Assembly: GCA_964016885.1 (NCBI GenBank) | Contig: CAXHJY010001742.1 | Location: 1-64,000 of the forward strand | Direction: 5' to 3' | DNA from: Eledone cirrhosa | Lineage: Eukaryota | Length of the DNA stretch: 64,000 nucleotides | In this document: piece by piece, positions 26,106 through 27,081 of the stretch | How positions within the stretch are numbered: the stretch's first letter is position 1 | Layout: every line of letters starts with the position of its first letter | Translations under genes and position numbers: made by a program | Notes under the pieces: generated by a model | The model's database searches: none | Seen by the model: only the letters and a program-made list of their open reading frames with translations | What the model was told of the DNA's origin: nothing

Positions 26106-26285
26106 ATGATGTTTCGCGGCTTTTTGATCGGCTTATTCATTTTTTCCATGGCACGGAAATGGAGTATTTCCATTTCGAATCAAAACTTTTCACTAAAATC
26201 GGGCAATTGGTCTGATCAAATTCACATTCATGCCAGTTTTTACAAATCTATAATTAGAAATGTGGAGAAATCGAATGACCAGAAG
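26106..26285 (+). CDS. SGNH-hydrolase-like gene, putative exon 1
   Basis: Ends KSIIRNVEKSNDQK|GTAT (phase 0); SIIRNV resembles block I GDSIIR; start uncertain, possible frameshift. Confidence 0.45.
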
Positions 26286-26340
26286 GTATAAAAATATTAA
26301 TTCAAATGTATTTACTTATCATACCAACAAAAATACTTAG

Positions 26341-26490
26341 ATATTTTGTATACCTGGGGCCTGTCAGGGCCAGGTAATGTTAATCGCCAACATTGTTGTC
26401 TGTTATCCTTTTGTGAAAGTATTGGTGGTTCATGTCGGCTCTAATGATCTGAATCCTCGTCGCACCGTTGGCACTACAAAGCTGTGCAAA
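26341..26490 (+). CDS. SGNH-hydrolase-like gene, exon 2
   Basis: TTAG|IFCIPGA (block II)...VLVVHVGSND (block III)...LCK|GTAA, phase 0. Confidence 0.72.
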
Positions 26491-26547
26491 GTAATACAAT
26501 AATTTTTACCCAAGTATTTTTTATTAATCATTTATTTGTAAATTAAG

Positions 26548-26901
26548 GACAAAGTGCCCATTCGAGGCACAAAACCGGAAAAACAGGGGAAGAGTCTCTT
26601 TGCAAGGCTACAGAAAATAGCGGAAAAGCACCACTGTACACCCATTTTCTACAGTGGTGTCATTCCACGTCCACAAAGTGTAATTGAAAATAAAAATGAC
26701 TTGGGCAAGAGAAATTCTCGTTTGGAAAAGTTTAATTACTGCATGAAAGAAATGATTCAAAAATTGAACTTGCCCAATCTTCACAACATTGAAAATTGGT
26801 CAAAATTTGACAAATCTGACTTCAAACCAGATATGATTCATTTGAACAACGTTGGAAATCTTAAATTGACACAAATTTTTGCCAATGTTTTTGCCACCTG
26901 A
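26548..26901 (+). CDS. SGNH-hydrolase-like gene, exon 3
   Basis: TAAG|DKVP...IFYSGVIPR...EKFN...DMIHLN..GNLKL (block V DxxH); AATAAA at 26939. Confidence 0.75.
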   Translation, partial: DKVPIRGTKPEKQGKSLFARLQKIAEKHHCTPIFYSGVIPRPQSVIENKNDLGKRNSRLEKFNYCMKEMIQKLNLPNLHNIENWSKFDKSDFKPDMIHLNNVGNLKLTQIFANVFAT

Positions 26902-27081
26902 TCCTTGTTCTATGGCTGACTGACTAATTTTGTGACTTAATAAAATGTCATCATACTAGTAATGCACAATGGTCATTTTTAAATTTAAATTTTATTAAAT
27001 AGTTGTTGCTTGCATTGCCTTAAAATAGTAACAAGAATGTACACATACTTTTTAAAAATACATCATTATCAGTCAAATCAG

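What the first reader, a model, noticed from the sequence alone, without database searches (positions are those of the whole stretch)
26106..26944. Hidden mini-intron SGNH/GDSL hydrolase gene missed by the ORF track
Seen: two phase-0 GT-AG introns of only 55 bp (26286-26340) and 57 bp (26491-26547) join pieces giving SIIRNV / FCIPGA / VVHVGSND / SGVIPR / DMIHLN in the correct order, followed by AATAAA. Known: these correspond to SGNH blocks I, II, III and V, and this flavour resembles the esterase domains of CR1/L2 ORF1 and Helentron cargo. Inference: the neighbouring PDE9 introns are 0.7-5.4 kb, so this gene looks like cargo of a mobile or horizontally acquired element, or a stand-alone intron-bearing derivative of a TE esterase. 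Block I reads YKS rather than GDS; a 1-nt deletion from M-P-V-F-T-x-S-I-I-R is possible.
Basis: partly seen in the sequence, partly recalled or inferred. Interest (0 to 1): 0.75.

Follow-up and report, generated by a model that had tools for sequence, protein, structure and literature searches.

The report
Truncated esterase gene riding a Helitron
The gene is the back half of a two-domain cargo gene of a rolling-circle jumping element; a 9-kb deletion joined it in frame to the start of the element's transposase, and this likely inactive hybrid was then copied to more than 90 places in the genome.

Summary
The exon frames, the two GT-AG mini-introns (55 and 57 nt) and the SGNH motifs are at the stated coordinates. 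Splicing itself is inferred, because no RNA data were available. The gene is not a host gene. It lies in a 3.6-kb non-autonomous Helitron (window 25203-28807) with at least 94 young copies. The 12.6-kb parent encodes an HLE2-type RepHel (DUF6570, Rep, PIF1, UCH) and a five-exon NADAR-SGNH gene with an intact GDS motif; 7 places keep that exon. An 8,985-bp deletion joined the first 47 codons of the RepHel frame to the block-I serine. This explains 'YKS'; the proposed 1-nt deletion is refuted. The SGNH part drifts neutrally across copies (pN/pS 0.96), so the hybrid is most likely a passenger. The nearest solved relative of the family profile is the zebrafish L2 ORF1 esterase (PDB 4c1b). SGNH cargo in Helitrons is published (fish texim). 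I found no paper on a NADAR-SGNH fusion in Helitrons, but this scan already noted it on other DNA of this genome (e1-9506873). Added here: the junction, the termini (5' hairpin, 13-bp asymmetric inverted repeat, A|T target) and a 2A-like motif in the parent RepHel.

The parts
25203..28807 (+). Whole non-autonomous Helitron (HLE2-type) deletion derivative, 3,605 bp, between A25202 and T28808
   Evidence: Ends shared with 20 fetched copies. A before in 34 of 35 and T after in 35 of 35 elements with both ends; empty sites without duplication
25203..25228 (+). 5' terminus: TC followed by a 10-bp-stem hairpin (this copy lacks one stem base)
   Evidence: -10.2 kcal/mol in the parent, -6.9 here. The sister family has a change on both sides of one stem pair
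25226..25238 (+). Left arm of the 13-bp asymmetric terminal inverted repeat
   Evidence: identical in the sister family
26106..26246 (+). First 47 codons of the parent's RepHel reading frame, now the leader of the hybrid
   Evidence: In copy C2:46.8M the same frame runs on for 323 codons; parent map
26247..26249 (+). Deletion junction and block-I Ser codon; about 4 nt of imperfect microhomology; 8,985 bp of the parent lost
   Evidence: 93 exact junction matches elsewhere in the genome. Junction also seen in contigs of public runs X2, X3, X4
26247..26285 (+). Remnant of exon 3 of the NADAR-SGNH gene (Ser to Lys60)
26286..26340 (+). Predicted intron, 55 nt, GT-AG, phase 0
   Evidence: homologues contiguous across it
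26341..26490 (+). Exon with SGNH block II Gly (26356-26358) and block III Asn (26443-26445)
26491..26547 (+). Predicted intron, 57 nt, GT-AG, phase 0, two in-frame stops
26548..26901 (+). Last exon with block V Asp (26830-26832), His (26839-26841) and stop
   Evidence: Pfam Lipase_GDSL_3 E 0.0038, below cut-off; Atlas GDSL clusters 0.91-0.92
26939..26944 (+). AATAAA, candidate polyadenylation signal
   Evidence: Sequence; use untested
27712..27929 (+). Internal arm of a 218-bp inverted repeat (inverted copy of the 3' end, with 34-bp tandem units)
   Evidence: absent from copies L098 and L099, which still end normally
27930..28593 (.). 664-nt loop between the arms; reversed in two parent-type copies
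   Evidence: no Pfam hit for its ORFs
28594..28807 (+). Terminal arm holding the right 13-bp inverted repeat (28765-28777) and the 3' end CTGG
   Evidence: the sister family ends CTAG

Best explanation
The gene is the SGNH half of a Helitron's NADAR-SGNH cargo gene, joined in frame by an internal deletion to the first 47 codons of the RepHel frame, and is likely a non-functional passenger of a 3.6-kb non-autonomous element. Shown: the parent (12.6 kb) has the order 5' hairpin and inverted repeat, RepHel (DUF6570, HUH Rep, PIF1, UCH), NADAR-SGNH in five exons, a 1.1-kb fold-back and the CTGG end. Shown: 8,985 bp were lost between two Ser codons with short microhomology, both termini were kept, and the product spread to at least 94 sites. 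Inferred: the deletion arose by microhomology-mediated repair or template switching during rolling-circle copying, and a RepHel supplied in trans did the copying. Inferred: the hybrid could be transcribed from the RepHel start and spliced, but it has lost the strand and the Gly-Asp before the nucleophile, so esterase activity is probably lost or much reduced. Inferred for the parent: the fusion is an accessory enzyme (ADP-ribose removal from DNA plus ester hydrolysis or lipid binding).
For: Repeat family: 40 of 40 scored candidates match at 98-100%, out of 349 candidates. Shared sharp ends, A|T target, empty sites. Sister copies leave the window family exactly at 26247 and read a NADAR tail plus GDS. 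Parent map and Pfam: DUF6570 7e-15, Helitron_like_N 1e-24, PIF1 1e-25, UCH 8e-13; three exons hit NADAR positions 4-67, 81-116 and 120-162 in order. A 335-codon NADAR-SGNH frame is open after predicted splicing in 1 of 4 full-length parent-type copies aligned. The leader runs on into RepHel. 93 exact junction matches against 7 places with the GDS exon. SGNH part: 27 synonymous, 91 missense and 8 stop changes, pN/pS 0.96, p 0.83; 19 of 34 copies intact. Other derivatives that lack most of the gene also spread, so the gene is not needed in cis.
Against: The join is in frame (1 in 3 by chance) and keeps Ser, Gly, Asn, Asp and His. The window copy and 19 of 34 copies are open with intact splice sites. 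The 47-codon leader shows pN/pS 0.40 among copies (11 synonymous of 30 changes, p 0.019, one of three tests), although against the sister family it gives dN/dS 1.4. Changes that arise in copies after insertion say little about selection on a master copy or on one domesticated copy. The 34 copies were picked by similarity. Each NADAR exon hit is weak (E 0.005-0.05, below cut-off). No unbroken RepHel was found among the 8 Rep-bearing copies of this family that I read.
Confidence: 0.85

Rival explanations
1. The hybrid is a working new gene: the RepHel promoter and hydrophobic leader drive a spliced, perhaps secreted or membrane-bound SGNH protein that helped this derivative spread or now serves the host.
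For: In-frame join; Ser, Gly, Asn, Asp and His retained; AATAAA; 19 of 34 copies intact; leader pN/pS 0.40. In fish, Helitron-borne texim genes are expressed in testis (PMC4021074, parts 1-2 of 5 read).
Against: SGNH part neutral, with 8 stop changes. The block-I strand and Gly-Asp are gone. Derivatives lacking most of the gene spread too. The leader is not conserved against the sister family.
Confidence: 0.1
2. A stand-alone host gene, domesticated from a transposon esterase or horizontally acquired, that sits beside PDE9.
For: Very few database relatives (1 hit among 1.84 billion representatives).
Against: It lies wholly inside a dispersed repeat with sharp Helitron ends and at least 94 near-identical copies. 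Its first exon is transposase sequence.
Confidence: 0.03
3. Block I was damaged by a 1-nt deletion in an upstream M-P-V-F-T frame.
For: A strand-like MPVFT stretch lies one frame away, just before the Ser.
Against: The DNA before the Ser is the RepHel leader, identical to the parent's 5' part, and the true upstream exon with GDS exists 9 kb further along the parent.
Confidence: 0.01

Closest known systems
texim genes of fish (Tomaszkiewicz et al. 2014, PMC4021074; parts 1-2 of 5 read)
   Same: Intron-bearing SGNH hydrolase gene, related to CR1-type esterases, carried and multiplied with a Helitron.
   Different: In texim the Helitron coding region lies 3' of the gene or in its last intron, and teximYa/b have 15 exons and are expressed. 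Here the gene lies 3' of RepHel, has five exons with mini-introns, is fused to NADAR, and the window copy is truncated. Orthology not tested.
ZfL2-1 ORF1p esterase, PDB 4c1b (Schneider et al. 2013, PMC3905857; passages read)
   Same: Best solved match of the family profile (E 1.9e-9; P0002 alone 2.4e-7). Same Ser/Gly/Asn/Asp/His set.
   Different: That domain sits in a LINE ORF1. Here it is a spliced gene in a DNA transposon, with no reverse transcriptase in the element. The window piece P0001 alone did not hit 4c1b.
HLE2 Helitrons: 'HLE2-reverse' FoHeli3-5 and proto-Helentron (PMC11417382 sections 22-23, passages and supplement look-ups; PMC5148889 passages; PMC4067079 passages)
   Same: DUF6570 and UCH, FWR before Rep motif 2, a 5' hairpin upstream of a short inverted repeat, no 3' hairpin; A|T target and CTRR end as in proto-Helentron.
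   Different: Animal host; 5' TC rather than TT or TGCCT; 218-bp fold-back at the 3' end; NADAR-SGNH cargo, which is not among the Pfam rows of HELIANO Table S11. No phylogeny was built, so the subgroup is unassigned.
NADAR domains in retrotransposons (Ectocarpus Gypsy, oyster Tx1 ORF1; PMC12477816 passages) and NADAR hydrolases (PMC11543638, PMC11125620 passages)
   Same: A NADAR domain carried by a mobile element; NADARs remove ADP-ribose from guanine in DNA.
   Different: Here it is in a rolling-circle DNA transposon and fused to SGNH; it is deleted from the window copy; activity untested.

Membership tests
SGNH hydrolase | Block I Gly-Asp-Ser with nucleophile Ser | tested here: not met
   Window copy: Ser kept, preceded by Tyr-Lys from the RepHel leader. 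The parent has GDS at 7 places
SGNH hydrolase | Block II Gly, block III Asn, block V Asp-x-x-His in order | tested here: met
   aligned to 4c1b
SGNH hydrolase | Profile or fold match | tested here: inconclusive
   Pfam below cut-off (E 0.004-0.03); window model pLDDT 46 and no fold hit. The homologue P0002 model (pLDDT 62) gives SGNH structures in its top rows, 43 matches at E<=0.001; profile to 4c1b 1.9e-9
SGNH hydrolase | Esterase activity | not testable with these tools
   Needs an assay
HLE2 (Helitron2/Helentron group) | RepHel with DUF6570 and F/Y-W-R before Rep motif 2 | tested here: met
   Parent only. The diagnostic S/L position of motif 2 reads A, neither type
HLE2 (Helitron2/Helentron group) | Short asymmetric terminal inverted repeat (12-16 nt) | tested here: met
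   13 bp, 25226-25238 / 28765-28777; same in the sister family
HLE2 (Helitron2/Helentron group) | T|T insertion and 3' stem-loop (usual form) | tested here: not met
   A|T in 34 of 35; hairpin is at the 5' end, the 3' end folds at only -1.9 kcal/mol. This matches the described reverse/proto-Helentron form
HLE2 (Helitron2/Helentron group) | Placement in the HLE2 clade by transposase tree | not tested
   No reference transposases on hand
Helentron in the strict sense | AP endonuclease domain after the helicase | tested here: not met
   UCH follows PIF1; no Exo_endo_phos among the 8 ORF pieces scanned
HLE1 (canonical Helitron) | 5' TC, 3' CTRR, A|T target, no duplication | tested here: met
HLE1 (canonical Helitron) | Hairpin 10-12 nt before the 3' end; transposase without DUF6570 | tested here: not met
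texim | SGNH gene linked to a Helitron | tested here: met
texim | Falls in the Texim clade | not tested
   Texim sequences not on hand
CR1/L2 ORF1 esterase | Part of ORF1 of a LINE with downstream reverse transcriptase | tested here: not met
   The parent element holds RepHel, not RT; the gene has introns
NADAR (parent only) | Profile match over the whole domain | tested here: inconclusive
   Three exons cover profile 4-67, 81-116 and 120-162 in order, each E 0.005-0.05; genome search E 5.7e-4, 30.7 bits against cut-off 35.1
NADAR (parent only) | Catalytic Glu, Lys, Glu | tested here: inconclusive
   Glu and Lys seven apart and a Glu in the last strand are present by spacing; one copy has Gly for the last Glu; no structural alignment

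The most novel reading that the evidence does not exclude
The parent is an animal Helitron with its own counter-defence kit. A NADAR-SGNH fusion strips host-laid ADP-ribose from the single-stranded DNA of the rolling circle, a deubiquitinase sits on the transposase, and a 2A-like StopGo motif cuts off the transposase leader. The window's derivative then turned that leader plus the esterase into a new gene expressed from up to about 100 sites.
Probability: 0.12. Interest if true: 0.75.

Novelty: new variant of a known kind. Interest (0 to 1): 0.42.

Why it matters
The window gene itself is probably debris, but its history is unusually well recorded: parent, breakpoint and descendants are all in one genome, showing how a Helitron makes and multiplies an in-frame hybrid gene in one step. 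The parent matters more. If its NADAR works as characterised NADARs do, a eukaryotic DNA transposon carries an eraser of DNA ADP-ribosylation, which would point to ADP-ribosylation as a host defence against transposons and give a direct test of it. A 2A-like motif in a Helitron transposase and reverse-type HLE2 ends in an animal would extend the known Helitron anatomy.

Tried and rejected
RNA evidence: no RNA holder listed. The five runs laid are contigs of unknown kind and showed no joint at either intron; this is no evidence either way. Word-index protein searches: nothing for P0001 and only itself for P0002 (near lengths only). P0002 is a single unnamed NCBI sequence on a 2.2-kb contig, so its context is unknown. 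Metagenome and viral contig scans with alignment A1: none confirmed of 137 and 299 pattern matches. Fold of the window piece: pLDDT 46, fold search uninformative. PDB sequence searches with P0001 or single NADAR exons: no meaningful hit. A second Atlas search gave no result. Rfam on the parent and window element: none, so the hammerhead of note e1-8672901 was not confirmed here and may belong to another family. Related HLE2 families: the 86% sister (2 copies read) and the 49-62% relatives (4 copies read) show no NADAR-SGNH by tblastn, so no diverged homologue was available for dN/dS of the cargo. Rejected: piggyBac/Kolobok (TTAA only in this copy's left flank); a TIR element explaining the mobility (all copies examined move from the 5' hairpin end; L098 and L099 lack the inner arm; but 2 of 19 loop hits, L046 and L049, did not show the usual left side); retroelement (introns, no RT); link to PDE9 (opposite strand, about 5 kb beyond the last exon recognised). 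Apparent target duplications in 14 of 35 elements lie in TA-rich repeats. Literature: searches listed no paper joining NADAR with Helitrons or with SGNH, or 2A with Helitrons; one search listed only 30 of 1,627 papers. Subscription journals and Repbase were not searchable, and the supplements of papers other than HELIANO were not read.

Full report
Observation. The introns are AT-rich (GC 0.18 and 0.16 against 0.36-0.45 in exons). One shifts the frame and the other holds two stops. The only database relative found, P0002 (E 3.6e-6, 1 hit among 1.84 billion representatives), aligns without a break across the intron-1 position. Splicing is inferred, not observed.

SGNH identity. Pfam hits are weak (Lipase_GDSL_3 E 0.0038, below cut-off). 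The Atlas gives unnamed eukaryotic clusters first (0.96, 0.93) and then GDSL clusters (0.92, 0.91). A three-row profile of P0002, the window piece and the parent's junction exon hits the zebrafish L2 ORF1 esterase 4c1b at E 1.9e-9; most of that signal comes from P0002, which alone gives 2.4e-7, while the window piece alone gives no hit. A model of P0002 (pLDDT 62) retrieves SGNH structures in its top rows. The model of the window piece was too poor to use. The Gly, Asn, Asp and His of the family and the Ser are all present.

It is a repeat. The 961-bp gene region has 349 candidates in the 3.0-Gb genome, and the 40 scored match at 98-100%. Of 20 copies fetched, 18 match the window almost end to end (about 25202-28811), one stops at 27912 and one has a deletion near the 5' end. 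The element starts TC after an A and ends CTGG before a T. Among 35 distinct elements with both ends, 34 have A before and 35 have T after, and paralogous empty sites (L131 against L122, L022 against L099) show the flanks contiguous without duplication. The 5' end carries a 10-bp hairpin followed by a 13-bp inverted repeat whose partner lies 30 nt from the 3' end; the 3' end has no stable hairpin. A sister family keeps the 13-mer, changes both sides of one hairpin pair and ends CTAG.

The parent. Three copies found with P0002 leave the window sequence exactly at 26247, the Ser codon, and upstream read a NADAR C-terminus followed by GDS. P0002 has the same order, with a faint NADAR hit (E 0.18). 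The longest copy (G000:C28, about 42,936,070-42,948,700, minus strand) is 12.6 kb and shares both ends with the window element. It encodes DUF6570, Helitron_like_N, PIF1 and UCH, and then three exons that hit consecutive thirds of the NADAR profile. The five-exon NADAR-SGNH gene has introns of 54, about 215, 55 and 57 nt and is open over 335 codons in 1 of the 4 full-length copies aligned (C2:46.8M, where the block-V Asp is changed to Asn); the other three are frameshifted, and two further copies lack exon 1. Seven places keep the GDS exon. 22 places match the Rep domain at 84-100% over 200 or more residues; the 8 copies of this family that I read are all interrupted, though some homopolymer frameshifts may be assembly errors (one search shows run contigs differing from the assembly by single bases in runs). 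The sister family and more distant HLE2 families lack the cargo.

The junction. The window's first 47 codons are the start of the RepHel frame: in copy C2:46.8M the same frame continues for 323 codons. The deletion runs from a Ser codon in that leader to the block-I Ser codon, 8,985 bp on, with about four bases of imperfect microhomology. An exact 30-nt junction pattern occurs 93 times (control 0); the window copy differs by one base and is additional. Contigs of public runs X2, X3 and X4 carry the same junction, so it is not an assembly artefact.

Is the hybrid functional? In 34 distinct copies (chosen by similarity, 2-17 substitutions each from the majority over 901 nt) the SGNH part has 27 synonymous, 91 missense and 8 stop changes, pN/pS 0.96, and 19 of 34 are intact. 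The leader gives 0.40 (p 0.019, one of three tests), but against the sister family the same 47 codons give dN/dS 1.4, whereas the RepHel core gives 0.27. Other derivatives that delete most or all of the gene have spread as well. I read the hybrid as a passenger. This test cannot exclude one expressed or domesticated copy.

Comparison with what is known. SGNH cargo in Helitrons is published for fish texim (PMC4021074, parts 1-2 read). HELIANO names DUF6570 as an HLE2 marker and UCH as enriched in subgroups c and d, and describes reverse-type HLE2 and proto-Helentron with a 5' stem-loop upstream of the left repeat (PMC11417382, sections 22-23 and passages). Proto-Helentron inserts between A and T (PMC4067079, passages). 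The Fusarium group II elements have a 5' hairpin, no 3' hairpin and a 13-16-bp inverted repeat (PMC5148889, passages). This element works like those. It fails the usual HLE2 target and 3' hairpin tests, the HLE1 hairpin and transposase tests, and the Helentron endonuclease test. NADAR and SGNH are not among the Pfam rows of HELIANO Table S11. NADAR is reported in Gypsy and Tx1 retrotransposons (PMC12477816, passages). My searches listed no paper on NADAR in Helitrons or on a NADAR-SGNH fusion.

Likely role of the parent cargo (inference). Characterised NADARs remove ADP-ribose from guanine in DNA (PMC11543638, PMC11125620, passages), and the parent keeps Glu, Lys and Glu at fitting spacings. 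A rolling-circle element exposes single-stranded DNA, so protection from ADP-ribosylation is plausible; that some molluscs have guanine-specific DNA ADP-ribosyltransferases is my recall, from no call. The L2 esterase is hydrolytic and binds acidic phospholipids (PMC3905857, passages). None of this was tested here, and the sister family does without the cargo.

Verdict. The window gene is a truncated, probably inert hybrid in a young non-autonomous Helitron. The interest lies in the parent: a new variant of a known kind, partly seen before in this scan. Interest 0.42.

Noticed in passing
L125:7107-8075 (RepHel frame, codons about 50-85); also L149, L151, L165; deleted from the window copy: A 2A-like StopGo motif (GCVELNPGP, Cys in place of the Asp of the published motif) ends an 80-residue leader of the RepHel frame. 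The roughly 35 codons before and in it differ from the sister family by about 11 synonymous and 1 missense change (by subtraction). No Helitron 2A paper was listed. Activity untested.
   Followed up: partly
window 27712-28811: 218-bp inverted arms with 34-bp tandem units enclose a 664-nt loop that is reversed in two parent-type copies (C28:42.9M, C4:29.8M), which suggests recombination between the arms. The sister family has similar arms around a different core with a 205-codon ORF.
   Followed up: partly
window 26941-27713: A roughly 690-bp segment between 75%-identical direct repeats holds open frames on both strands (26989-27327 +, 27082-27372 -), with no Pfam hit. The plus frame recalls the end of a PLAT domain (recall only).
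   Followed up: partly
G000:C5:5,368,400-5,375,100 (L153-L154) and about 20 similar places: A second young HLE2 family with open frames of up to 2,230-2,245 codons, 56-57% identical in Rep, no NADAR-SGNH. Its ends did not match this element, so a role in trans is unknown.
   Followed up: partly
G000:C13:18,885,150-18,896,360 and C10:33,071,760-33,082,930 (L149-L152): Sister family, 86% identical in Rep, 1,904-codon open frame in one copy, same terminal design ending CTAG, lacking the cargo gene; a related non-autonomous piece is nested in an intron of copy C28:136M.
   Followed up: partly
L034, L037, L039, L040, L042, L043, L048, L052, L133-L136, L098-L099: Several further deletion derivatives of 1.4-2.4 kb with the same two ends (for example 25476 joined to 26719, 25475 to 27572), some carrying a piece of NADAR exon 1.
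   Followed up: partly
L093, behind the RepHel stop (parent positions about 14,580-14,800): A tandem pair of roughly 100-bp repeats follows the RepHel stop, three in the sister family; no Rfam hit. Note e1-8672901 reports a hammerhead in a RepHel 3' UTR in this genome; identity with this stretch not established.
   Followed up: partly
window 33794-41775, minus strand: Exons of a cyclic-nucleotide phosphodiesterase (PDE9-like, recognised by eye from translations); the last recognised exon ends near 33794.
   Followed up: no
window 10886-13800 (-), 18651-21404 (-), 21782-22159 (+): A LINE with an open endonuclease-RT frame, and Penelope-like RT/GIY-YIG pieces with an inverted duplication, recognised by eye.
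   Followed up: no
run X5 on window 26057-26753: Low-depth pieces 99% identical to the element occur in a run labelled as another organism; a close relative, contamination or mixed sample cannot be told apart.
   Followed up: no
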